Of a DNA stretch of 64,000 bases, positions 43,980-54,413 are shown one piece after another. The notes beneath the pieces are model-generated. The model did not search any database, had not been told where the DNA came from, and saw only the letters and a list, made by a program, of their open reading frames with translations. Positions within the stretch are counted from its first letter, which is position 1. The number at the start of each line of letters is the position of its first letter. This DNA comes from Candidatus Dadabacteria bacterium (GTDB lineage Bacteria; Desulfobacterota_D; UBA1144; Nemesobacterales; Mycalebacteriaceae), in contig JAPOUR010000032.1 of assembly GCA_026708565.1 (NCBI GenBank), positions 9,081-73,080 on the forward strand. Reading direction: 5' to 3'. A program made the position numbers and the translations under genes.

Positions 43980-45210
43980 TATGCGTTCCCTTGTGGAAAA
44001 ACTTTCCGTTAAATCGGATTCCAAAATTGTGATGTGCGTTCTTGACGGCCTTGGCGGCCTGCCGGTAAAAGGGAAGACCGAACTTCAAAGCGCAAAGACT
44101 CCCAACCTTGACCGTCTGGCTCGCTCCGCTTCGTGCGGATTTCACCTGCCGGTCGCGCGGGGGATAACGCCCGGAAGCGGAGCCGCCCATCTGGGGCTTT
44201 TCGGCTACGACCCGCTTGAGTGCGGGATGGGAAGAGGCGTGGTGGAAGCGGCGGGGCTTGGAATTAAAATCGGGAAAAACGACCTTGTGGCAAGAGGCAA
44301 CTTCGCCACCGCCGGGGAGCGGGGCGGCAAACTGATTGTAACCGACAGAAGGGCGGGAAGAATATCAACAAAAAGCGCCGCCGCTCTTGCGGAAAAACTG
44401 TCGGGCGGCATAAAGAAAGCGGGAAACGCGCGCGTCAGGATATACCCGGGGCTTGAGCACAGGTTTGTCGCGGTGTTCAGTTTTCCGCGCCCCGTGCCGG
44501 ACGGAGGGGAAATCAAAGACACCGACCCCCAAAAGGAGGGGGCGGCCGTTGACCTGACTCCGAAAACCGCTTCAAGAAAACCCGCAACAGTGGCCGCCGC
44601 GCGCGCGGCGGGGATTTTCGGCGCAAAGGCGCGGGAAATACTAAAAGGGGAAAAAAAGGCAAACTGCGTTCTGCTCCGGGGATTCTCCACACCGCCGGAC
44701 CTCAGCCCGTTCGGGAAAACCTACGGGCTGCGCGCCGCGTGCGTCGCCTCATATCCCATGTATCGCGGAGTTGCGGGCGGCATTTTAGGAATGGAAATAA
44801 AAGACCCGGAAGACGGCGGCATACAAAGTGCGGTTGAACGCGCCGCGAGTGTTGCGGGGGATTTTGATTTTGTTTACGCGCACATAAAATCCACGGACAG
44901 GCACGGCGAGGACGGCGACTTCAAAAAGAAGGCCGCCGCCATAGAGGAGTTTGACAAAATGCTGCCGCGCCTTCTTGCGGCAAAGCCCGATGTTCTGGTA
45001 ATCACCGGAGACCACTCAACACCCGCGCTGATGTCATCCCACAGCTGGCATCCCGTTCCGCTGTTGATAAAATCGCGCTTCAGCATAGGCGGGACGCGCG
45101 GCTTTGATGAAATCCGCTGCCGGGACGGCGAACTCGGAATTGTGCGGTCGGTTGAGATAATGCCCCTCGCTCTCGCGCACGCCGGACGGCTTGCGAAATT
45201 TGGAGCCTGA
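43972..45210 (+). CDS. apgM: Cofactor-independent phosphoglycerate mutase of the archaeal type.
   Basis: 412 aa beginning MPDMRSLVEKLSV...VLDGLGGLP, with the metalloenzyme core. Confidence 0.75.
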   Translation: MPDMRSLVEKLSVKSDSKIVMCVLDGLGGLPVKGKTELQSAKTPNLDRLARSASCGFHLPVARGITPGSGAAHLGLFGYDPLECGMGRGVVEAAGLGIKIGKNDLVARGNFATAGERGGKLIVTDRRAGRISTKSAAALAEKLSGGIKKAGNARVRIYPGLEHRFVAVFSFPRPVPDGGEIKDTDPQKEGAAVDLTPKTASRKPATVAAARAAGIFGAKAREILKGEKKANCVLLRGFSTPPDLSPFGKTYGLRAACVASYPMYRGVAGGILGMEIKDPEDGGIQSAVERAASVAGDFDFVYAHIKSTDRHGEDGDFKKKAAAIEEFDKMLPRLLAAKPDVLVITGDHSTPALMSSHSWHPVPLLIKSRFSIGGTRGFDEIRCRDGELGIVRSVEIMPLALAHAGRLAKFGA

Positions 45211-45238
45211 TGTCTTTGTGATATTATTGCGTTGCCCA

Positions 45239-45321
45239 GCCGAAGTGGCGGAATTGGCAGACGCGCTATCTTGAGGGGGTAGTGCCCTTGTGGCGTGGGG
45301 GTTCGAGTCCCCCCTTCGGCA
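45239..45321 (+). tRNA. tRNA-Leu, anticodon GAG, class II with a long variable arm.
   Basis: Acceptor stem GCCGAAG/CTTCGGC, D-arm GCGGAATTGGCAGACGCG, anticodon loop TTGAGGG, T-arm GGGGGTTCGAGTCCCCC. Confidence 0.85.
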
Positions 45322-45332
45322 AATCCGCAAAA

Positions 45333-46052
45333 TTAATTTGTTGTTTCCTGAGGAGTCTCCGGTGTTTCCTGTTCCGGTGTTTGCGGAACATCTTCCGATG
45401 TTTCAGGCGAAACTTCCGACACTTCTTCTATCTCCTCCGCCGCCGGGTCAGGCAGTGTCGTGGCAAACTGTCTGAGCAGTTGGTCGGCTCTTTCCTTGTC
45501 GCCGTTTTTTCCGTAAGCGGTCGCAAGAATGGGCAAAACCCTCCTGCGGTGAGCCGGGCTTTCCACGAACAACTCCTCCAAATACCTTATGGCGTCAATC
45601 CATCTCTCCAGACGAAAACTGGAAAAACCCGCCATAAAAAGCGCCTCGCGCCTCAAAATTTTGTCCTGTGAATCTGAAAGAAACCCGCTCATGCGTTCAA
45701 GAGAGAGTTCATCCTCTTCTTTTGCAAAAAGTATAGCGCCCTCGTAATACTCGGCGGTCCGGGCGGTTTTTACGCCTTCAAACCGCTCTCTTACCTCACC
45801 GAGGATTTCCAGAGAGCCGTCCATGTCGCCGCTTTCATAAGCAAGAAGCGCGGCCTCCATTTGGCCGCCCGCCTCCATCAGGGTCTTCTCCCTCGCGCTT
45901 GAAAAAACCGCATAGGCGACAAACGCCGCCACCGGTATCAGGGCAAGCGCGGCAAGCAGAAGGCCGCTTGTGTTGCGAACTCTGTCAAGAAGGCTTTGCG
46001 GAGCGGCGGACGGGAGAGCGTCTGCGTCGCCGTTTGTGTTGTTGTCATTCAT
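45333..46052 (-). CDS. Membrane-anchored tetratricopeptide-like protein with an acidic C-terminal tail.
   Basis: One transmembrane helix (LLLAALALIPVAAFVAYAVF), TPR-like helical content, and a PETPQE-rich tail. Confidence 0.5.
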   Translation of the reverse strand: MNDNNTNGDADALPSAAPQSLLDRVRNTSGLLLAALALIPVAAFVAYAVFSSAREKTLMEAGGQMEAALLAYESGDMDGSLEILGEVRERFEGVKTARTAEYYEGAILFAKEEDELSLERMSGFLSDSQDKILRREALFMAGFSSFRLERWIDAIRYLEELFVESPAHRRRVLPILATAYGKNGDKERADQLLRQFATTLPDPAAEEIEEVSEVSPETSEDVPQTPEQETPETPQETTN

Positions 46053-46082
46053 AGCGCGGCGGTTATCATACTTTTTGAAGGG

Positions 46083-47414
46083 ATGAGAGGCAAGACATTG
46101 ATTGCGTTTTTATGCGCGGCTCTGGCGTGGGCGATTCCCGCCGGTTCGGCGACTGACGGCGGATTGCCTGAAAAAATCGTGCTTTCAGTTCCTCTTGACG
46201 GAACGGTGAATCCGTTCTCGGCGGACTTCATACAAACCGCCATAGCGGCGGCGGAAGAGCAAAAAGCCGAAGCCGTCCTGCTGGTTATAGACACTCCGGG
46301 CGGGTTGCTCAACTCAACAAAGGAAATTGTCAAAAGCATTCTGAACTCTCCCGTGCCGGTGGTGGCTTACGTTTCCCCCGCCGGGGCCACGGCAACTTCT
46401 GCGGGGGCGTTCATATTTCTCGCCTCCCACATAGCGGCGATGGCTCCGGGCACAAGCGTGGGAGCAGCCCACCCGGTCGCCGGGTCGGGCAAGGAGGTGG
46501 AGGGCAAAGGCGGGGAGAAGGTTGTCAACTTCGCTTCCTCATACATAGAGAGCATAGCGCGCGAGCGGGGGCGCAACTCAAAGTGGGCTGTCAAGGCGGT
46601 AAAGGAAAGTTCATCGGTAACATGGAAATACGCGGTGAAAAACAACATAGCCGACTTTTCCGCGCCGGATGCGGCGGCTCTGCTTGAGATGATTGACGGA
46701 ACAAAAGTCAGCATCGGGGAGAAGACGCGAAAACTGTCAACTTCAGGGGCGACAATCATCACTCACCGAATGACCGCGCGCCAGCGCATGGGCAACATTC
46801 TCGGCTCGCCCGACATTGCATACCTGCTTCTCTCCCTCGGCTCGCTGGGGATTTTGATGGAGATATACAACCCCGGAAGCATTTTCCCCGGCGTGGTGGG
46901 AATCATATCGCTTATGCTTGCCTTCGCCTCGCTTCAAGTGCTTCCTTTCAGTTATGCGGGGCTTGGGCTCATAGTGGTGGGGGCGGCTCTGATGATGGCC
47001 GAGTTTTTCGTAACCAGTTACGGGCTTCTCGCACTTGCGGGAACGGTGTCTTTAATCGCCGGGGGCGTTCTGCTTTTTGATCCGGCGCAGACGGGCGGCC
47101 TGAGCGTGAATTTCAGAACTCTCGCGGCGGTCGGCGGAACTTTTGCCGCTATTCTCGGCTTTGTGGTGGTGGCGGCGGCACGCTCGCCAAAAGTCCCCTA
47201 CCTTGGAGAGACCGTTCCGGCGGGCGGAAGAGAGGGGGTTGTTGTTGACTGGCAACAGGGCGGGGGTATAGTGCAAGTGGGCGGCGAATACTGGAAGGCG
47301 GAAAGCGCGGGGCCTCCCTTGTCAAAGGGCGACCGTGTAAAGGTCAGCGGCAAGGCGGACGGGCTGAAGTTGAAAGTGGAGCGCAAAACTCAAAAGAGCG
47401 GAGGAAAACAATGA
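46083..47414 (+). CDS. NfeD-family membrane-bound ClpP-class serine protease, partnered with a stomatin operon.
   Basis: Signal peptide, ClpP-like domain ([12 protein letters not shown]), transmembrane segments and a C-terminal OB domain. The ribosome-binding site GAAGGG precedes the ATG at 46083. Confidence 0.75.
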
Positions 47415-48211
47415 GCACACCTTTTTTACTTGCGGCGATAGGGGCTTTGCTCCTGTTTATGGGGGCAAAGATACTCAAAGAGTATGAGCGGGGGGTGGTT
47501 ATGCGTCTTGGCCGCGTGGTCGGCATCAAGGGGCCGGGGTTTGTCTGGATAATCCCCTTCATAGATAAGATGACAAAGATAAGCCTTCGCGTAATCGCGA
47601 TGGATGTTCCGCCTCAGGATGTCATCACCAAAGACAATGTTTCAGTGAAGGTGAACGCCGTTCTTTATTTCAGGGTCGTCAACCCGATAAACACCATAGT
47701 GAAGGTTGAGAATTACTATTACGCCACGTCCCAACTTGCGCAGACAACACTGCGGAGTGTGCTGGGGCAGGTTGAGTTGGATGAGTTGCTGACCGAAAGG
47801 GAGGAGCTCAATATGAAGTTGCAGGAGATTCTGGATTCTCAAACGGATGACTGGGGAATCAAGGTTACTCTTGTGGAGGTCAAGCATGTTGACCTGCCTC
47901 AGGAGATGCAGCGGGCGATGGCTCAGCAAGCCGAAGCGGAGAGGGAGAGAAGGGCGCGAATAATAAGCGCGGAGGGAGAGTTTCAGGCGTCGCAGAAAAT
48001 ATCCGAGGCGTCCGAGGTTCTTTCAAAAAATCCCGTGTCTCTTCAGTTGAGGTATTTGCAGGCAATGTCGGACATATCGGGCGAGCACAATTCAACCATC
48101 ATTCTGCCGCTTCCGATTGACATACTGAAGCCGTTTGCGGAAAGAGCCGCGGGCGGCGCTCCGATTCAAAAAGCGGTGAGCGGGAAAGACCCTTTCAAAG
48201 CGCCGGAGTGA
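47411..48211 (+). CDS. SPFH/band-7 stomatin-like protein.
   Basis: Sequence ...[30 protein letters not shown]..., overlapping nfeD by 4 bp. The nfeD-stomatin operon is canonical. Confidence 0.8.
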
Positions 48212-48241
48212 TAGAGCAGTGTAAGACTGTTTCGCGTTGTT

Positions 48242-49546
48242 ATGATTAAACATCTCAAGATGAGCAATGTGGGACCAGCTCCGGCTATGGAGTTGGAGTT
48301 TGGCGACAGACTGAACCTGCTCACGGGGGATAATGGATTAGGCAAGAGTTTTCTGCTGGATATAGCATGGTGGGCGATGACCCGCATATGGCCAGCGGAG
48401 TTAAACACGAATCTGACATCGGGCAGGGTGGCGTTGCCTACTGAGAAGAAACAGAAATCTGAAATCAGTTATTCCTTCTCCGCATTCTCTACGAACACAA
48501 AACCACATACCAGCACTTATGAACCGGAAATCCAAAGTTGGTCTGCTCCAAGTTGGCCTGCTCCAAAAGGGAGACCCCCAAACCCCGGATTGGTGTTTTA
48601 TGCCTTGGCCGACGGTAGTTTTGCAGTTTGGGACCCCGCCAGAAATTACTGGACAGCACAAACCGGGAACGGAGAACGTCCGGTTGCTTATGTGTTCAGC
48701 CCCAAAGAGGTATGGGATGGATTGCAACGCAAAGACGGTTCTTGGCTTTGCAACGGACTGATTCGCGATTGGGCTGGCTGGCAAAAAGAAAAAGGACAAG
48801 CTTTCCAGTCCTTAAAGGATGTGCTGGAGGTTTTGTCACCGTCCACTGAGGAAAAGATTACTCCCGGCGAGTTGACACGCATCAGTTTGGATGATGTGCG
48901 AGACATGCCGACATTGAAAATGCCTTACGGTCAGGATGTCGCCGTAGTCCATGCGTCTGCGGGAATGCGCCGGATTATTTCTCTGGCTTACTTTCTGGTC
49001 TGGTGCTGGGAAGAACATGTCAAAGCCAAGAAATTGCAGGGAGATGAAGATGAACCGGAAAAAGGTGTGGTCTTTCTGGTTGATGAAGTTGAGGCACACC
49101 TCCATCCGAAATGGCAACGCATGGTAATCCCGTCCCTTCTAAAGGTTATGGAAACTCTAACAGAATCCGTCCCTGTGCAACTGATAGTAGCAACTCATTC
49201 ACCCTTGGTTATGGCCTCGGTGGAAACGCTGTTTGACAACGAGAAGGATGCTTGGTTTGACCTTGACCTTAAAGACAATGAAGTCGTTCTAACCCCTCGG
49301 CCCTTTGTAAGGCAAGGTAATGTTGCTCATTGGCTGACAAGCGCAGCCTTTGATTTGGAGTCCGCTTACGGCTCTGATGAAATCAAAAAAGTACTGGAAG
49401 AAGCCTCCTTTGCTTTGAGCAATGAAAATTTCAGTAAAGAAGAAGCAAAAAAGTTAGATAAGCGCCTGAGAAAAGTCTTGTCAAGTACCGACCCCTTATG
49501 GGCACGGTGGCGTTTTGAGGGCGAAAAAAGAGGGTGGCTACGATGA
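48242..49546 (+). CDS. ptuA: Septu PtuA-like ABC-type ATPase of the AAA_15/AAA_21 family.
   Basis: Walker A LLTGDNGLGKSF and Walker B/H-loop VVFLVDEVEAHLHP...VATHSP, with a long insert between them. It is coupled by a 13-bp overlap to an HNH gene. GC is about 49%. Confidence 0.65.
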   Translation: MIKHLKMSNVGPAPAMELEFGDRLNLLTGDNGLGKSFLLDIAWWAMTRIWPAELNTNLTSGRVALPTEKKQKSEISYSFSAFSTNTKPHTSTYEPEIQSWSAPSWPAPKGRPPNPGLVFYALADGSFAVWDPARNYWTAQTGNGERPVAYVFSPKEVWDGLQRKDGSWLCNGLIRDWAGWQKEKGQAFQSLKDVLEVLSPSTEEKITPGELTRISLDDVRDMPTLKMPYGQDVAVVHASAGMRRIISLAYFLVWCWEEHVKAKKLQGDEDEPEKGVVFLVDEVEAHLHPKWQRMVIPSLLKVMETLTESVPVQLIVATHSPLVMASVETLFDNEKDAWFDLDLKDNEVVLTPRPFVRQGNVAHWLTSAAFDLESAYGSDEIKKVLEEASFALSNENFSKEEAKKLDKRLRKVLSSTDPLWARWRFEGEKRGWLR

Positions 49547-50148
49547 TTCATGTCAAGTTGCGACCGGAGCCTGATACATTCAATAGCAGGGTTAGGCAAA
49601 AAGGTCATGCTTGGATGAACAAACACCAGACTCTACCGCCCAGCAATAAATTCCCTCGCTACTGGAAAGATTGTCTGGATGATTTGCGTTCAAGTTATAA
49701 AGACCATTGCGCTTACCTCGCCGTACAGATTGAAGAAGTTGAAGGAGAATACCCTTCTGTGGATCACTTCTTAGCAAAATCGAGACGACCCGACCTTGCA
49801 TACGAATGGAGCAACTATCGTCTTTCATGCTCAGAAATAAATAGTCTCAAAGGCAACTCTGATGATGTATTAGACCCGTTTGAAATAAAGAACAACTGTT
49901 TTCATCTTGATCTTGAATTTTTAATCGGGCATATCTACTCCAATAAGGCACTACCGCCTGACCAAAGAGAGGGGATTCAAGCGACTATAGATAAGCTCAG
50001 ATTGAACAATGATAAATATCGGGAGATGAGGGAGCAACATTACCAAGATTGCCGTGAGGGACACTACGACAGCGATTACTTGAAACGCATATCTCCCTTT
50101 GTTTGGTCGGAGGCTAAACGGCAGGGGTTGCTGAAAGATAACGGCTAA
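49534..50148 (+). CDS. ptuB: Septu PtuB-like HNH endonuclease of the TIGR02646-like family, with a partly degenerate zinc finger.
   Basis: Sequence HCAYL...VDHFLAKSRRPDLAYEWSNYRLSCSEINSLKGN retains the HNH His/Asn residues, but the second Cys of each CxxC pair is replaced. Confidence 0.6.
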   Translation: MATMIHVKLRPEPDTFNSRVRQKGHAWMNKHQTLPPSNKFPRYWKDCLDDLRSSYKDHCAYLAVQIEEVEGEYPSVDHFLAKSRRPDLAYEWSNYRLSCSEINSLKGNSDDVLDPFEIKNNCFHLDLEFLIGHIYSNKALPPDQREGIQATIDKLRLNNDKYREMREQHYQDCREGHYDSDYLKRISPFVWSEAKRQGLLKDNG

Positions 50149-50183
50149 CCAACCACCCGTATTGGAGTTGAGAGGAAACAAAC

Positions 50184-51035
50184 ATGAAAACAGAAACCAA
50201 AGGCGGCAGGACCGCCCTGATAAGGGCTGCAAAAGAAGGCGATACCAATAAGATACGGAAATTGCTGAAAGCAGGGGCAAACATAGAAGCAAAGGATAAT
50301 GAGGGTAGGACGGCTCTTATAATCGCAACAGAATATGAGCGCTCTCAAGCAATGGGGTTACTGTTGAAAGCAGGAGCGGATACAGAGGCAAGAGCAAAGA
50401 AGCGCAGACGGACATCTCTGATGATTGCGGCGGCAAGAAGCGGAACAGGTAGGGTGGCTGAACTACTGAAAGCAGGGGCAAACACAGAAGCAAAAGATAA
50501 TGAGGGCAGGACGGCTCTTATAATCGCAACAGAATATGAGCGCTCTCAAGCAATGGGGTTACTGTTGAAAGCAGGAGCGGATACAGAGGCAAGAGCAAAG
50601 AAGCGCAGACGGACATCTCTGATGATTGCGGCGGCAAGAAGCGGAACAGGTAGGGTGGCTGAACTACTGAAAGCAGGGGCAAATACAGAAGCAAAGGATA
50701 ATGAGGGTAAGACGGCTCTTATAATCGCAGCAGAAAACGGGCACTCTCAAACAACGGCGGAGCTACTGGAAGCGGGAGCAGACATAGAAGCAAAAGATAA
50801 ATATGGCGGAACAGCCCTTATAGTAGCAGTAGGAAACGAACATCATAAAGTAACGGCGGAACTACTGAAAGCAGGAGCGGCAAAAGGTGAAAATGGCAGA
50901 AAACTTCACAAAGCAACAGCCCTTCGGGAAGCAAGAGACCTCTGGGAGAAAACAAGAAAAACCAATATAAGTAGCAAGACCACCCTAATAAAGGCTACCA
51001 AAAAGGCGATACCAACAAGATACGAGAATTGCTGA
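50184..51035 (+). CDS. Ankyrin-repeat protein, N-terminal part of a probably frameshifted gene.
   Basis: About 8 ANK repeats (GRTALIIA...LLKAGA). The reading frame continues in the +2 frame after an A5GG tract at 51000-51006. Confidence 0.6.
   Translation: MKTETKGGRTALIRAAKEGDTNKIRKLLKAGANIEAKDNEGRTALIIATEYERSQAMGLLLKAGADTEARAKKRRRTSLMIAAARSGTGRVAELLKAGANTEAKDNEGRTALIIATEYERSQAMGLLLKAGADTEARAKKRRRTSLMIAAARSGTGRVAELLKAGANTEAKDNEGKTALIIAAENGHSQTTAELLEAGADIEAKDKYGGTALIVAVGNEHHKVTAELLKAGAAKGENGRKLHKATALREARDLWEKTRKTNISSKTTLIKATKKAIPTRYENC
50271..50740. repeat. Near-perfect 201-bp tandem repeat, about 2.3 copies, encoding 67-aa double-ANK units.
   Basis: Units start at 50271, 50472 and 50673. 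Copies 1 and 2 differ at only a few positions. Confidence 0.9.
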
Positions 51036-51940
51036 AAACAGGGGCAAACATAGAAGCAAAAGATAACCGAGGCAGGACGGCTCTTATAATCGCAACAGAA
51101 TACGAGCACTCTCAAGCAATGGGGTTACTGTTGAAAGCGGGAGCAGATACAGAAGCAAGGAGAGAGATGCGTAGGTGGACACCTCTGATGATTGCGGCAA
51201 GATTTGAAACAAGTAATCTGGCGGAACTGCTGAAAGCAGGGGCAGACACAGAAGCAAAGGATAATGAGGGCAAGACAGCCCTTATAATCGCAGCAGAATA
51301 CGGGTGCTCTCAAGCAACGGCGGAGTTACTGAAAGCGAAGGCAGACATAGAAGCAAAGGATACATATGGCAGAACAGCCCTTAGAGTAGCAACAGGAAAA
51401 AGACGCCATAAAGTAACGGCGCAACTGCTGAAGGCAGGGGCGAGAGTAGAGGAAGCGAAGGCAGGGGCAAAAGTAGGGGAAGCAAGAGAAACCAATATAA
51501 AAGTTCAGAGCCCGGATGCCCATAAAGTTTCTTTCTCCACAGAAGCGGAGTTAGAAAACTTTATTTGTTCGCATTGGTACCACACTATCTTTGGCAATGC
51601 TTTTGACATTTACAAAGACACGGAAGGGCGAAGCGGCAAGCAATACCCCACGGACCTGAGAGAGCGGATTGATATTCTTGCCATAAGCAATGACAAGGAA
51701 ACTTTTCTTGTCATTGAACTGAAAGTGGGCAAAGCCCCCGATACCGTTGTCGCACAATGCCAGCGTTACATGGGCTTTGTCAAAGACAAAGTGGCAAAGA
51801 ACGGCCAGAAAGTGCGGGGAGCCATAGTAGCCACAGAAAAAGACAAGAAGATGGAACGGGCTTTGTCAGAAGCATCTAATGTTGACTTCTACACCTACAA
51901 GGTTGACTATAAGGCCGTTCAAATGAGCAGAGTTGAGTGA
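51029..51940 (+). CDS. Ankyrin repeats followed by a C-terminal PD-(D/E)xK nuclease-like domain (NucS/DUF91-like or Shedu-like). This is probably the 3' part of the same gene as 50184..51035.
   Basis: ANK repeats, then RIDILAISNDKETFLVIELKVGKAPDTVVAQCQRYMGFV, which carries the D...E-x-K core and the QxxRYMG motif. Confidence 0.55.
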   Translation: MLKTGANIEAKDNRGRTALIIATEYEHSQAMGLLLKAGADTEARREMRRWTPLMIAARFETSNLAELLKAGADTEAKDNEGKTALIIAAEYGCSQATAELLKAKADIEAKDTYGRTALRVATGKRRHKVTAQLLKAGARVEEAKAGAKVGEARETNIKVQSPDAHKVSFSTEAELENFICSHWYHTIFGNAFDIYKDTEGRSGKQYPTDLRERIDILAISNDKETFLVIELKVGKAPDTVVAQCQRYMGFVKDKVAKNGQKVRGAIVATEKDKKMERALSEASNVDFYTYKVDYKAVQMSRVE

Positions 51941-52488
51941 GTTCCGCCGATTTGGAAAAACTCCCGCCACTGTTTATAATGCGCGCAAATACCGGATTTG
52001 CGGTGCCCGAAATGGTTTTCAGTCAGAACGAAATAGGGTCGGAACGACTGCTTTTTGAAGTGTCAAAAAGCGCCGGGTGGCTGACCAATATAGAAGAAAT
52101 GGCGGACGGCAGCGGGGAAACAACCCTCGGCTCCCGCATTCTTTTCAGCGCGGGCGTTGAGAAGATCGGCGCACAACTGCATGTCTGCGGCGAAGTGTCG
52201 TTTGAGGTTGTGTCGCGCTGCTCAAGATGCCTCGGCTCTGCAAAAGAACGGGTGCGCAGCCCGATAGAGTCCTTTCTGCCCATGCCCGGCGGCGGAAACG
52301 TCATAGACATCTCGGACGATATGAGGGAACATGTGGCAATGGCAATGCCGCAGAGAGTGGTGTGCCGGAGCGAGTGCAAAGGACTTTGCGCCGGATGCGG
52401 GGCAAACTTGAATGAAGGTTTCTGCGATTGCGCAAGCGACCGGACTGACCCGCGCCTCGGCGCGCTGAAAGACGCCCGGACGGCCTGA
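51937..52488 (+). CDS. yceD: YceD/DUF177 family protein, needed for large ribosomal subunit and 23S rRNA accumulation.
   Basis: C-terminal Cys cluster CSRCLG...CRSECKGLCAGCGANLNEGFCDC. Its position immediately upstream of rpmF is conserved. The start is uncertain. Confidence 0.7.
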   Translation: MSSADLEKLPPLFIMRANTGFAVPEMVFSQNEIGSERLLFEVSKSAGWLTNIEEMADGSGETTLGSRILFSAGVEKIGAQLHVCGEVSFEVVSRCSRCLGSAKERVRSPIESFLPMPGGGNVIDISDDMREHVAMAMPQRVVCRSECKGLCAGCGANLNEGFCDCASDRTDPRLGALKDARTA

Positions 52489-52509
52489 AAGCGGCAAGGA
52501 GAAAAAACA

Positions 52510-52713
52510 ATGGCGGTTCCAAAAAGAAAAACATCAACATCAAAATCAAGGAAGAGAAGAACGCACTACAAAGCGGCCGTGCCCGCCAGTTCCATGTGCC
52601 CCGAATGCAACGAGAAGATGCACCCCCACAGAGCCTGCCCCCACTGCGGCTACTACAAGGGGAAAACCTACATGAGAGAAACCGGAGAAGCGGAGGATGA
52701 CGGGGACGAATGA
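52510..52713 (+). CDS. rpmF: 50S ribosomal protein L32.
   Basis: MAVPKRKTSTSKSRKRRTHYK...CPECNEKMHPHRACPHCGYY. Confidence 0.9.
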   Translation: MAVPKRKTSTSKSRKRRTHYKAAVPASSMCPECNEKMHPHRACPHCGYYKGKTYMRETGEAEDDGDE

Positions 52714-52753
52714 AACCCCCGGCGCCGCGCGGACGGCCTGAAGAAAAGACCAG

Positions 52754-53671
52754 ATGACATCGTTTGTTTTCCCCGGACAAGGTTCGCAAAGTGTCGGCAT
52801 GGGAAAAGACCTGTGCGACAACTTTGCCGAGGCGCGCGCCGTCTTTGAAGAGGCGGGCGACGCCATATCAGGCGATATGAAAGCGCTGTGCTTTGACTCC
52901 GATGAGCAGACCCTCAGCCTGACCTTCAACGCCCAGCCCGCCATACTGACCGTGAGCATCGCGGCGCTTGCCGTGTTGCGGAGTGAAAAGGATATAAAGC
53001 CCGGCTTTGTGGCGGGACACAGCCTCGGAGAGTATTCCGCGCTTGTGTGCGCGGGCGCAATTGATTTTGCGGACGCGGTGCGGACGGTGAGGGAAAGAGG
53101 CCGGTTTATGCAGGAGACGGTTGCGGCGGGAGACGGAGCGATGGCCGCAATCATAGGGCTCGGAAGGGAAGAGGTCGGGAACATATGCAAAGAATGCTCC
53201 GAAGACGGCGGGGGCGTGTGGCCGGCAAACTACAACTCACCGGAACAGACAGTAATATCCGGAGTGGCGGGCGCGGTGGAAAGAACATCCGCAACCGCCC
53301 TTGAGCGCGGGGCGAAAAGGGCGATTCCCCTGAAAGTCAGCGCGCCGTTCCACTGCCCGCTTATGAAACCGGCGGCGGAAAAACTCGCCGGTTTTCTGGA
53401 AGGCGTCGCCATAGGAGATGTTGAAATTCCGGTTGTAACAAACCTTCACGCGAAAGAGAATTCAGACCCCGCAAAGGTGAAAGGGATTCTGCTTGACCAG
53501 ATAACAAATCCGGTCAGGTGGACGGAATCGGTTTCACGAATGGCGGAGAAAGGGACGGACAGATTTATTGAAATAGGGCCCGGCAGGGCGCTGTGCGGAC
53601 TCATAAGAAGAACGGCGGCGGGGGCGGAAACCCTCAATCTTGAAATGGCGGAACAGTTAAATAGGATTTAG
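52754..53671 (+). CDS. fabD: Malonyl-CoA:ACP transacylase.
   Basis: Motifs FVFPGQGSQ and GHSLGEYSAL. Confidence 0.9.
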   Translation: MTSFVFPGQGSQSVGMGKDLCDNFAEARAVFEEAGDAISGDMKALCFDSDEQTLSLTFNAQPAILTVSIAALAVLRSEKDIKPGFVAGHSLGEYSALVCAGAIDFADAVRTVRERGRFMQETVAAGDGAMAAIIGLGREEVGNICKECSEDGGGVWPANYNSPEQTVISGVAGAVERTSATALERGAKRAIPLKVSAPFHCPLMKPAAEKLAGFLEGVAIGDVEIPVVTNLHAKENSDPAKVKGILLDQITNPVRWTESVSRMAEKGTDRFIEIGPGRALCGLIRRTAAGAETLNLEMAEQLNRI

Positions 53672-53675
53672 CGCT

Positions 53676-54413
53676 ATGCTGGAAAACAAAACGGCGCTTG
53701 TTACCGGAGGGTCAAGGGGGATAGGAAGACAGACCGCAACAGACCTTGCAACCGAGGGATGCCATGTGATAGTCAACTACCACTCAAGCCCGGATGCGGC
53801 AAACGAAACCCTTGAAGCAATTGAAAAAAGCGGGGGCAGCGGAGAGGTGTTGAAGTTTGATGTTTCAGACTACGGGGCAACGGAAAAAGCGCTCTCCCCG
53901 GTTGTGAACAAAAGGGGAATTGACATAGTGGTCAACAACGCCGGCATTACCAGAGACAAACTTTTTGTCAGAATGGCGGAGAAAGACTGGGACGCGGTTG
54001 TTGACACCAACCTCAAGGGCATATTCAACTGCACAAAAGCGGTTGTGAGAAGCATGCTTAAAAAGAGATACGGAAGGATAATAAACATCACTTCCGTTGT
54101 CGGGGAGATGGGCAATCCGGGGCAGATAAACTACTCCTCGGCAAAGGCCGGTATAATAGGGTTCACGCGGTCGGCGGCAAAGGAGTTCGCCTCGCGCGGG
54201 GTAACCGTGAACGCCGTCAGCCCGGGGTTTGTGGAGACCGACATAACCGCCCCCATACCGGAAGAGATGAAAAGCGCCTACCTTGAATCCATACCGCTTG
54301 GCAGATACGGAACAGTGGAAGACATCTCCGGAGCGGTCATCTTTCTGGCGTCCGAAAAGGCGTCATACATCACCGGAGAGGTCATAAGGGTAAACGGCGG
54401 TCTTTACATTTAG
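53676..54413 (+). CDS. fabG: 3-oxoacyl-ACP reductase.
   Basis: Motifs TGGSRGIGR and NYSSAKAG; 245 aa. Confidence 0.9.

What the first reader, a model, noticed from the sequence alone, without database searches (positions are those of the whole stretch)
48242..50148. Septu-like PtuA/PtuB pair whose HNH partner has a degenerate zinc finger
PtuA-like ABC ATPase (Walker A GDNGLGKS, Walker B/H-loop DEVEAHLHP...ATHSP) is translationally coupled to a 204-aa HNH protein of the TIGR02646 type. In PtuB the usual HCAYCE and CxxCN zinc ligands read HCAYL and CSEIN, so two of four Cys are lost while the catalytic H and N residues remain. This suggests a diverged Septu variant, or one that needs a different partner.
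Basis: partly seen in the sequence, partly recalled or inferred. Interest (0 to 1): 0.6.

Follow-up and report, generated by a model that had tools for sequence, protein, structure and literature searches.

The report
Ordinary Septu pair, zinc-finger-less PtuB clade
This is a standard two-gene Septu anti-phage system (ATPase PtuA plus HNH nuclease PtuB), and the "missing" zinc-binding cysteines are the normal state of a large PtuB lineage that defence databases already cover, not a defect of this copy.

Summary
Window 48242-49546 (+) encodes a 434-aa ABC-type ATPase with intact Walker A, Walker B and H-loop. It overlaps a downstream HNH gene by ATGA. The best PtuB start is ATG 49543, giving 201 aa, not 204.

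PADLOC Septu models match both proteins over their full length: PtuA PDLC00307 at 7e-177 and PtuB PDLC00348 at 4e-69. An AlphaFold model of PtuB (pLDDT 92.6) has only solved PtuB chains among its significant PDB matches.

PtuB does read C56-A-Y-L59 and C96-S-E-I99-N100, but this is not private decay. No member of the clade has all four Cys among 120 close homologues and 149 representatives clustered at 50% identity. D/E74-H75, N91, N100 and K103 are nearly invariant, and dN/dS is about 0.3. The clade has at least 522 clusters at 50% identity.

The E. coli ATCC 25922 PtuB, which has a solved structure, also lacks the canonical arrangement. Homologous cassettes stand alone as two genes, so no extra partner is indicated.

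The pair is a new member of a known kind. It lies in a 3.7-kb low-GC islet at a defence hot spot. A near-identical strain carries a ptuB allele only 51% identical, which is the more interesting side observation.

The parts
48242..49546 (+). ptuA: 434-aa ABC/SMC-type ATPase (Septu PtuA, PADLOC type I family)
   Evidence: ORF. PADLOC PDLC00307 PtuA1 at 7.1e-177, residues 1-432 on model positions 1-422 of 424. Pfam AAA_21 at 3.8e-24 and AAA_15 at 2.6e-17. It is 58-74% identical to the PtuA proteins that sit next to clade PtuBs in L002, L004 and L005.
48326..48349 (+). PtuA Walker A, GDNGLGKS (K35)
   Evidence: Translation. Invariant in the four-sequence alignment A2.
48956..48973 (+). PtuA signature-like motif SAGMRR (residues 239-244)
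   Evidence: Translation. S239, G241, R243 and R244 are invariant in A2. Calling it the ABC signature motif is inferred from its position.
49073..49093 (+). PtuA Walker B, FLVDEVE (D281, E282)
   Evidence: Translation. D281 and E282 are invariant in A2.
49193..49204 (+). PtuA H-loop, THSP (H319)
   Evidence: Translation. Invariant in A2.
49543..50148 (+). ptuB: 201-aa HNH nuclease (Septu PtuB). ATG 49543 overlaps the ptuA stop as ATGA. GTG 49534 is the mechanical alternative start.
   Evidence: ORF and DNA. PADLOC PDLC00348 PtuB1 at 4.2e-69, model positions 1-194 of 198. AF2 model pLDDT 92.6. All 11 Foldseek PDB matches with E <= 0.001 are PtuB chains from Septu or retron I-A.
49708..49851 (+). 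PtuB beta-beta-alpha-metal core, C56 to K103. Catalytic D74-H75, N91, N100 and K103. The former zinc-ligand positions read C56, L59, C96, I99.
   Evidence: Translation. Strands 72-75 and 92-95 and helix 97-103 in the model. Column counts. HMM alignment to Ec78 PtuB and 9n69_F.
49957..50148 (+). PtuB C-terminal helical domain (helices 139-151, 157-171, 177-193), the presumed PtuA-docking domain
   Evidence: Secondary structure of the model. The docking role is inferred from Ec78 and Septu structures, where three C-terminal PtuB helices bind the PtuA C-terminal extension (PMC12673091; PMC12819146).

Best explanation
This is a stand-alone type I Septu anti-phage system with two genes, ptuA and ptuB, which overlap and are probably translationally coupled. 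By analogy with characterised Septu systems, PtuA (an ABC/SMC-like ATPase) oligomerises into a scaffold. Its C-terminal extension holds the C-terminal three-helix domain of PtuB. Nucleotide-bound PtuA keeps the HNH nuclease quiet until infection releases that inhibition. PtuB then cuts nucleic acid (DNA nicking or tRNA cleavage, depending on the system), which arrests growth or aborts the infection. This PtuB belongs to a large lineage that has replaced the structural Cys4 zinc site of retron-type PtuB with hydrophobic residues (L59 and I/M99) while keeping a Cas9-like D-H...N...N active site. The nuclease is therefore expected to be active without a structural zinc. Shown here: gene structure, family and fold membership, intact catalytic motifs, clade-wide absence of the Cys4 site, purifying selection, two-gene autonomy, and location in an inserted islet. 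Inferred: complex formation, ATP control, the trigger, the substrate and hydrophobic packing of the former zinc site.
For: PADLOC Septu models give the best, full-length hits to both proteins. The PtuB model is confident, and its 11 significant PDB matches are all PtuB chains, with probability 1.00 and TM 0.55-0.66. PtuA's significant PDB sequence matches are all PtuA or retron I-A ATPases. ATPase motifs are intact and conserved.

In 120 homologues, H75 and N100 are present in 120/120, N91 in 119/120 and D/E74 in 120/120, and positions 59 and 99 are never Cys. In 149 representatives at 50% identity, 0 have Cys at all four positions and only 4 have three or more. The clade has 522 clusters at E <= 1e-30.

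dN/dS is 0.11-0.18 for PtuA and 0.25-0.33 for PtuB. Six homologous loci hold the two-gene cassette alone. No RT gene or retron RNA is nearby.

The segment is an insertion. GC is 0.44-0.51 against 0.55-0.60 in the flanks. Three related Thermodesulfobacteriota genomes have Band7 directly followed by YceD.

[quoted passage not shown] Septu EcB88 cleaves tRNA-Tyr and needs the Walker and HNH residues (PMC13096335).

Zinc-less precedent: PMC12673091 states that, unlike the other HNH domains it compared (including SpCas9), PtuB contains a zinc finger. E. coli ATCC 25922 PtuB (8EE7) has no Cys at the positions aligned with ligands 2 and 3.
Against: I found no experimentally tested member of this clade. 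In retron Eco7 PtuB the Cys4 zinc finger is needed for defence: the quadruple Ala mutant is dead (PMC12673091). Activity without it is therefore inferred from conservation, not shown. NCBIfam TIGR02646 and the Ec78 PtuA and PtuB equivalog models all score below their curated cutoffs. I could not read the model coordinates, so packing of C56, L59, C96 and I99 at the old zinc site was not checked. No promoter or terminator was identified for the pair.
Confidence: 0.85

Rival explanations
1. PtuB here is a decaying or catalytically dead nuclease. Loss of the zinc ligands destabilises the HNH fold, so the locus is a remnant or PtuB serves only as a non-catalytic adaptor.
For: Two of the four canonical Cys are missing. 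In retron Eco7 PtuB, mutating the four Cys abolishes defence (PMC12673091). The neighbouring ankyrin/nuclease gene carries a frameshift, so some decay does occur in this islet.
Against: The same substitutions hold across a clade of at least 522 clusters at 50% identity. D/E74, H75, N91, N100 and K103 are 98-100% conserved. dN/dS is 0.25-0.33. The ORF is intact and identical in length to its homologues. AF2 predicts a confident beta-beta-alpha fold.
Confidence: 0.05
2. The system needs a third component. The downstream ankyrin-repeat/PD-(D/E)XK protein (50184-51940) would be a functional partner or sensor, making this a three-gene Septu variant.
For: The gene lies 36 bp downstream on the same strand within the same low-GC islet. 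It recurs with PtuAB in the two sister strains L001 and L076. Its nuclease domain matches the PADLOC candidate PDC-S02 at 3.7e-50.
Against: None of six more distant loci with clade PtuAB has an ankyrin or PD-(D/E)XK neighbour. PDC-S02 is catalogued as a candidate in its own right. The gene is split by a 1-nt deletion in the window and in L001, while ptuAB stays intact. In L076 ptuB has been swapped while the ankyrin part stays 90-100% identical, so the two evolve independently.
Confidence: 0.07
3. The pair is the effector module of a type I-A retron (type II Septu), or belongs to another ATPase-nuclease system such as PARIS, Gabija or OLD.
For: The best PDB sequence matches of PtuA are retron Ec83 and Ec78 ATPases. 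PADLOC AriA and retron ATPase_I-A/HNH_I-A models give secondary hits at 1.5e-39, 2.7e-23 and 1e-11.
Against: These hits are far weaker than the Septu models at 7e-177 and 4e-69. No reverse transcriptase lies within 10 kb on either side (gene list), and the only Rfam match at E <= 1 in 45000-54000 is a tRNA. PtuA is 434 aa, against 542-552 aa for the retron-associated PtuA chains matched. The NCBIfam Ec78 equivalogs score 77.8 against a cutoff of 500, and 38.2 against 150. No TOPRIM or DUF4435 domain appears in either protein.
Confidence: 0.03

Closest known systems
E. coli ATCC 25922 Septu PtuAB (PDB 8EE4, 8EE7, 8EEA; Li et al. 2024 NSMB, read only through citing papers)
   Same: It is a stand-alone two-gene ATPase + HNH system. 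PtuB has the same fold (Foldseek E 8.9e-06, probability 1.00). Its PtuB also lacks Cys at the positions aligned with zinc ligands 2 and 3. A C-terminal helical PtuB domain and a PtuA C-terminal extension are present.
   Different: Sequence similarity is very low. PtuB reaches only E 2.6e-06 in a profile search and 19% identity in the structural alignment. PtuA matches at E 8.5e-07 over about 100 residues. The E. coli proteins are 465 and 243 aa, against 434 and 201 aa here. The last catalytic residue appears to be His in E. coli (GGHA, read from an OCR'd alignment) and Asn (N100) here.
Retron Eco7/Ec78 and Eco4/Ec83 PtuAB (type II Septu; PDB 9vh1, 9nnb, 9kjx, 9e8z and others)
   Same: The ATPase core and the HNH + C-terminal domain architecture are homologous. 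These chains are among the best structural matches, with TM up to 0.66.
   Different: These systems need RT, ncRNA and msDNA. Their PtuA is about 550 aa, with an N-terminal extension and helical flap (PMC12819146). Their PtuB has a Cys4 zinc finger (C43, C46, C78, C90) that is essential for defence (PMC12673091). The window's PtuB reads C56, L59 and C96, with no equivalent of C90.
Septu EcB88 (E. coli JBBDAGI-19-0041; PMC13096335)
   Same: It is a stand-alone PtuAB in which the Walker A/B and H-N-H residues are required. The H75 and N91 numbering happens to coincide with the window's PtuB.
   Different: It belongs to a different clade. PtuB is 219 aa with CAYC ... C-x4-C, so four Cys are present (OCR'd alignment). 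PtuA is 452 aa. Its target is the tRNA-Tyr variable loop. The target of the window's system is unknown.
Cas9 HNH domain
   Same: It has a D-H...N...N active-site layout and no structural Cys4 zinc site. PMC12673091 sets the zinc finger of Eco7 PtuB apart from other HNH domains. Weak profile and fold matches were found.
   Different: It is a domain inside a large RNA-guided enzyme, with no ATPase partner. Similarity is limited to the beta-beta-alpha core.

Membership tests
Septu (type I, stand-alone PtuAB) | PtuA: ABC/SMC-like AAA_15/AAA_21 ATPase recognised by Septu PtuA profiles | tested here: met
   PADLOC PDLC00307 PtuA1 at 7.1e-177, full length. Pfam AAA_21 and AAA_15 score above their cutoffs.
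Septu (type I, stand-alone PtuAB) | PtuB: HNH nuclease recognised by Septu PtuB profiles, with the PtuB fold | tested here: met
   PADLOC PDLC00348 PtuB1 at 4.2e-69, full length. All 11 Foldseek PDB matches with E <= 0.001 are PtuB chains.
Septu (type I, stand-alone PtuAB) | ptuA and ptuB adjacent, on the same strand, in one operon | tested here: met
   ATGA start/stop overlap at 49543-49546. The same arrangement appears in homologous loci.
Septu (type I, stand-alone PtuAB) | Catalytic motifs intact (Walker A/B in PtuA, H-N-H/N in PtuB); both are required in tested systems | tested here: met
   K35, D281/E282 and H319 in PtuA; D74-H75, N91 and N100 in PtuB. All are conserved. The requirement was shown for EcB88 (PMC13096335).
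Septu (type I, stand-alone PtuAB) | No associated reverse transcriptase or msr-msd RNA (separates type I from retron-linked type II) | tested here: met
   Genes within 10 kb on either side are housekeeping genes or the ankyrin gene. The Rfam scan of 45000-54000 finds only a tRNA.
Septu (type I, stand-alone PtuAB) | Protects against phage; PtuA-PtuB complex with ATP-inhibited nuclease | not testable with these tools
   This needs plaque assays and biochemistry. I found no tested member of this clade in the papers searched.
Retron I-A-type PtuB (Ec78/Eco7) | Cys4 structural zinc finger (C43, C46, C78, C90 in Eco7) | tested here: not met
   Aligned positions read C56, L59 and C96, with no fourth Cys (I99). 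0 of 149 clade representatives have four Cys. This is not a defining feature of Septu as a whole, because ATCC 25922 PtuB also departs from it.
NCBIfam TIGR02646 (retron system putative HNH endonuclease subfamily) | Score at or above the curated cutoff (52.15 bits) | tested here: not met
   44.2 bits, E 1.9e-11. The protein is related but below the cutoff. Some homologues are labelled TIGR02646 by JGI.
NCBIfam NF041760 / NF041761 (retron Ec78 PtuA / PtuB equivalogs) | Score at or above the curated cutoffs (500 and 150 bits) | tested here: not met
   77.8 and 38.2 bits.
PARIS / Gabija / OLD | TOPRIM or DUF4435 nuclease, fused to or partnered with the ABC ATPase | tested here: not met
   No TOPRIM or DUF4435 hit in either protein. 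The partner is an HNH protein. The AriA hit at 1.5e-39 covers only the generic AAA_21 core and is far below the PtuA score.

The most novel reading that the evidence does not exclude
The zinc-less PtuB lineage may be a functionally distinct Septu branch in which the segment from ptuA codon ~60 to ptuB codon ~183 acts as an exchangeable specificity cassette. Two strains whose flanks are 98-100% identical carry ptuB alleles only 51% identical at the protein level, with sharp recombination edges. This would mean that the central and C-terminal parts of PtuA, together with PtuB, determine which phage trigger, phage inhibitor or nucleic-acid target is recognised. It would also mean they are under diversifying selection by allele replacement, with the loss of the rigid zinc site perhaps allowing this fast evolution.
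Probability: 0.15. Interest if true: 0.45.

Novelty: new member of a known kind. Interest (0 to 1): 0.2.

Why it matters
For the finding as posed, it matters little. The pair is a routine Septu locus that PADLOC would call automatically, in an uncultured Thermodesulfobacteriota genome.

Two points have modest value. First, the Cys4 zinc finger reported as essential in retron Eco7 PtuB is absent from a very large stand-alone PtuB lineage. It should therefore not be treated as a family hallmark or used to call PtuB genes degenerate.

Second, the locus is a clear natural example of defence-gene turnover. One chromosomal site is empty in some genomes and holds Septu or CRISPR-Cas in others. Within Septu, the nuclease allele has been replaced between near-identical strains. 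A member of this clade would be a compact, zinc-independent PtuAB for biochemical work.

Tried and rejected
1. phmmer of PtuB alone against PDB sequences found nothing. A 61-sequence profile was needed to reach the solved PtuB chains.

2. I tried to recover the full ATCC 25922 PtuB sequence. tblastn of a 42-aa fragment against plasmids found nothing. The protein search with a 53-aa fragment returned only partial Salmonella-type proteins. The rest came from an OCR'd supplementary alignment, which contains reading errors, so residue-level statements about that protein are approximate.

3. Li et al. 2024 (PMC12318543) is not in the library. Its results are cited only through other papers.

4. I asked whether Septu EcB88, whose H75/N91 numbering matches the window, belongs to this clade. 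It does not: its PtuB has CAYC ... C-x4-C and is 219 aa. The Salmonella clade cassette has no DNA match in 5,426 complete E. coli genomes.

5. The promoter and terminator scan gave no useful operon boundaries.

6. No direct repeat of 8 bp or more is shared between the two islet edges (48120-48300 and 51800-52050), and no integrase is present. The islet is not an obvious integrative element.

7. I considered and rejected shifted Cys ligands, a retron effector, and PARIS/Gabija/OLD.

Full report
**1. What is in the sequence**

Window 48242-49546 (+) is a 434-aa ORF, followed by an overlapping ORF that ends at 50148. The mechanical start of the second ORF is GTG 49534, giving 204 aa. The ATG at 49543 is a better start for three reasons:
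- It overlaps the upstream stop codon as ATGA.
- The PADLOC model begins at that residue.
- Homologues begin MIxV.

PtuB is therefore best taken as 201 aa, 49543-50148.
- PtuA: GDNGLGKS (29-36), DEVEAHLHP (281-289), ATHSP (317-321).
- PtuB, ATG numbering: HCAYL (55-59), VDHF (73-76), WSNYRL (89-94), CSEIN (96-100).

**2. Family assignment**

- PADLOC Septu models are the best hits to both proteins and cover them end to end. PtuA1 PDLC00307 scores 7.1e-177 (586.6 bits) and PtuB1 PDLC00348 scores 4.2e-69 (230.1 bits).
- Hits to AriA, retron ATPase_I-A and HNH_I-A are far weaker and cover only the shared cores.
- Pfam finds only the generic AAA_21 and AAA_15 domains in PtuA, and nothing above its cutoffs in PtuB.
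- NCBIfam TIGR02646 matches PtuB at 44.2 bits, below its cutoff of 52.15. The Ec78 PtuA and PtuB equivalogs score far below their cutoffs.
- All 12 PDB sequence matches to PtuA at E <= 0.001 are PtuA or retron I-A ATPases.
- A 61-sequence profile of PtuB reaches the solved PtuB chains 8ee7_C, 9n69_F and 9vh1_F, among others.
- An AlphaFold2 model built on that alignment is confident, with mean pLDDT 92.6 and pTM 0.87. It shows strand 72-75, strand 92-95 and helix 97-103, the beta-beta-alpha-metal motif, followed by C-terminal helices.
- All 11 Foldseek matches to the PDB with E <= 0.001 are PtuB chains from Septu or type I-A retrons, at probability 1.00 and TM 0.55-0.66. Cas9 HNH domains follow.
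- No reverse transcriptase lies within 10 kb on either side. The only Rfam match in 45000-54000 is a tRNA at 45239-45321.

The pair is therefore a stand-alone (type I) Septu system.

**3. The "degenerate zinc finger"**

In retron Eco7/Ec78 PtuB, a zinc ion is bound by C43, C46, C78 and C90, and the quadruple Ala mutant loses defence (PMC12673091). The HMM alignment places the window's C56 on C43, L59 on C46 and C96 on C78. C90 lies in an insertion that the window's protein lacks. Position 99, where TIGR02646-type proteins carry the second Cys of CxxCN (my recollection of that model, not checked here), is Ile.

It is not a property of this gene alone.
- Among the 120 best of 341 homologues, C56 is invariant and position 59 is Leu in 111 and never Cys. 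Position 96 is Cys in 100 and Ser in 19. Position 99 is Met in 80, otherwise Ile, Val, Pro, Ala or Leu, and never Cys.
- An exhaustive profile search found 522 clusters at 50% identity with E <= 1e-30.
- In the 149 best representatives, none has Cys at all four positions and only 4 have three or more.
- The only columns with at least 40% Cys or His are 44, 56, 75 and 96. The ligands have therefore not moved elsewhere.
- The active site is held fixed in those representatives: D/E74 in 149/149, H75 in 146, N91 in 148, N100 in 148, K103 in 147, W89 in 148 and D111 in 149.
- dN/dS against three divergent alleles is 0.25-0.33 for PtuB and 0.11-0.18 for PtuA.

This is a functional, zinc-finger-less PtuB lineage with a Cas9-like D-H...N...N site. 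PMC12673091 notes that the HNH domains it compared, including SpCas9, lack the zinc finger.

The E. coli ATCC 25922 Septu, which has solved structures and is described as functional by the citing papers, also departs from the Cys4 pattern. It reads LCCYSE...HIEH...NLAAS, and no Cys follows for about 30 residues. That last point rests partly on 88%-identical partial homologues and on an OCR'd alignment.

**4. PtuA**

The PtuA proteins that sit next to clade PtuBs in three other genomes are 58-74% identical to the window's. Walker A (K35), the SAGMRR signature-like motif, Walker B (D281, E282), the H-loop (H319) and the C-terminal WRWRF...GWL tail are all invariant among them.

**5. Autonomy and context**

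In six homologous loci, the cassette is PtuA (422-426 aa) plus PtuB (199-202 aa), with no conserved third gene. In Salmonella, Pantoea and a JGI metagenome contig it lies between ppa and a GGACT-family gene next to tamB. In L005 it lies inside a cobalamin gene cluster, and in L002 beside a restriction-like cluster. In the short contig L079 the only downstream neighbour is an unrelated minus-strand ORF.

In the window the pair opens a 3.7-kb low-GC islet, with GC 0.44-0.51 against 0.55-0.60 in the flanks. The islet lies between a Band7/stomatin gene (47411-48211) and yceD-rpmF-fabD-fabG.
- Three related Thermodesulfobacteriota MAGs (L006, L007, L009; Band7 83-89% identical) have Band7 followed directly by YceD.
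- A fourth (L008) carries Cas_GSU0053, Cas_GSU0054 and Cas3-HD genes at that site.

The site is therefore a defence hot spot. No direct repeat of 8 bp or more is shared between the two islet edges, and no integrase is present.

**6. Strain comparison**

- The window is 99.8% identical to ENA contig ERZ27276908:k141_17025 (L001), apart from one extra 201-bp ankyrin repeat unit.
- L076 is a 1.2-Mb contig from ERZ21788732. Its flanking proteins are 97.5-100% identical to the window's and the flanking DNA is 98-100% identical.
- Between about 48400 and 50100, identity to L076 drops to 70-89% across ptuA and 58-64% across ptuB.
- PtuB is 51% identical at the protein level, yet its last 18 residues are identical.
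- Divergence of that size between such close strains can only come from recombinational allele replacement.
- The incoming allele is also of the zinc-less type (CAYL ... CSTMN).

**7. Mechanism**

Complex architecture, ATP control and target are inferred from characterised systems:
- EcSeptu forms a 6:2 PtuA:PtuB assembly.
- ATP lowers its DNA-nicking activity.
- PtuB docks through three C-terminal helices onto the PtuA C-terminal extension.
- Substrates differ between systems: plasmid nicking, ssDNA or tRNA-Tyr (PMC12640716; PMC12819146; PMC13096335).

The window's proteins have all the corresponding parts. The trigger and substrate are unknown. Packing of L59 and I99 against C56 and C96 in place of zinc is inferred, because I could not read the model coordinates.

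**8. Verdict**

"Septu" is confirmed. "Degenerate", "diverged variant" and "needs another partner" are not supported. This is a new member of a known kind that existing defence-system models already cover. The side observations on the hot spot and the allele swap are more interesting than the zinc ligands, but both are familiar kinds of defence-island dynamics.

Noticed in passing
window 48400-50100, compared with L076:4880-6560: A near-identical strain (flanks 98-100% nt identical; Band7 100% and NfeD 99% aa identical) has 70-89% nt identity across most of ptuA and only 58-64% across ptuB. PtuB is 51% identical at the protein level, but its last 18 residues are identical. This is allele replacement by recombination inside the Septu operon.
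   Followed up: partly
window 48212-51936; L006, L007, L009 around 7700-7830; L008:7783-14019: The Band7|YceD junction is a variable defence hot spot. It is empty in three related Thermodesulfobacteriota MAGs. It holds Septu plus an ankyrin/nuclease gene in the window, L001 and L076. In L008 it holds CRISPR-Cas genes (Cas_GSU0053, Cas_GSU0054, Cas3-HD). No direct repeat of 8 bp or more is shared between the two islet edges.
   Followed up: partly
window 50184-51940 (+): Two ankyrin-repeat ORFs (50184-51035 and 51029-51940) look like one gene of about 585 aa, made of ankyrin repeats plus a C-terminal NucS-like PD-(D/E)XK domain. The nuclease domain matches PADLOC candidate PDC-S02 at 3.7e-50 and the repeats match PDC-M72A. 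The gene is split by a 1-nt deletion near 51000-51006: AAAAAGGCGAT here against AAAGAAGGCGAT in the paralogous stretch at 50233-50244. L076 reads through this point (KATKKGDTNKIRELL). L001 has the same frameshift as the window.
   Followed up: partly
window 50265-50754: A 201-bp tandem repeat (2.4 copies, 95% matches) encodes two ankyrin repeats per unit. The window has one more unit than the otherwise 99.8%-identical contig L001. This may be true copy-number variation or an assembly collapse in L001.
   Followed up: no
window 51450-51900, compared with L076: There is a second dip in strain-to-strain identity (77-81% nt) across the PD-(D/E)XK domain of the ankyrin gene, while the ankyrin part stays 90-100% identical. 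Some of the dip may come from indel errors in the L076 assembly, which also splits yceD, fabG and fabF.
   Followed up: no
window 48535-48566: A 15-bp tandem duplication inside ptuA (2.1 copies) produces SWSAP/SWPAP. It accounts for a 5-aa insertion that is absent from the PtuA of L002, L004 and L005.
   Followed up: no
window 45239-45321 (+): A tRNA gene (Rfam RF00005, 49.1 bits) lies about 3 kb upstream of the islet. A TPR gene, an NfeD gene and the Band7 gene separate it from the islet, so it is not at the insertion boundary.
   Followed up: no
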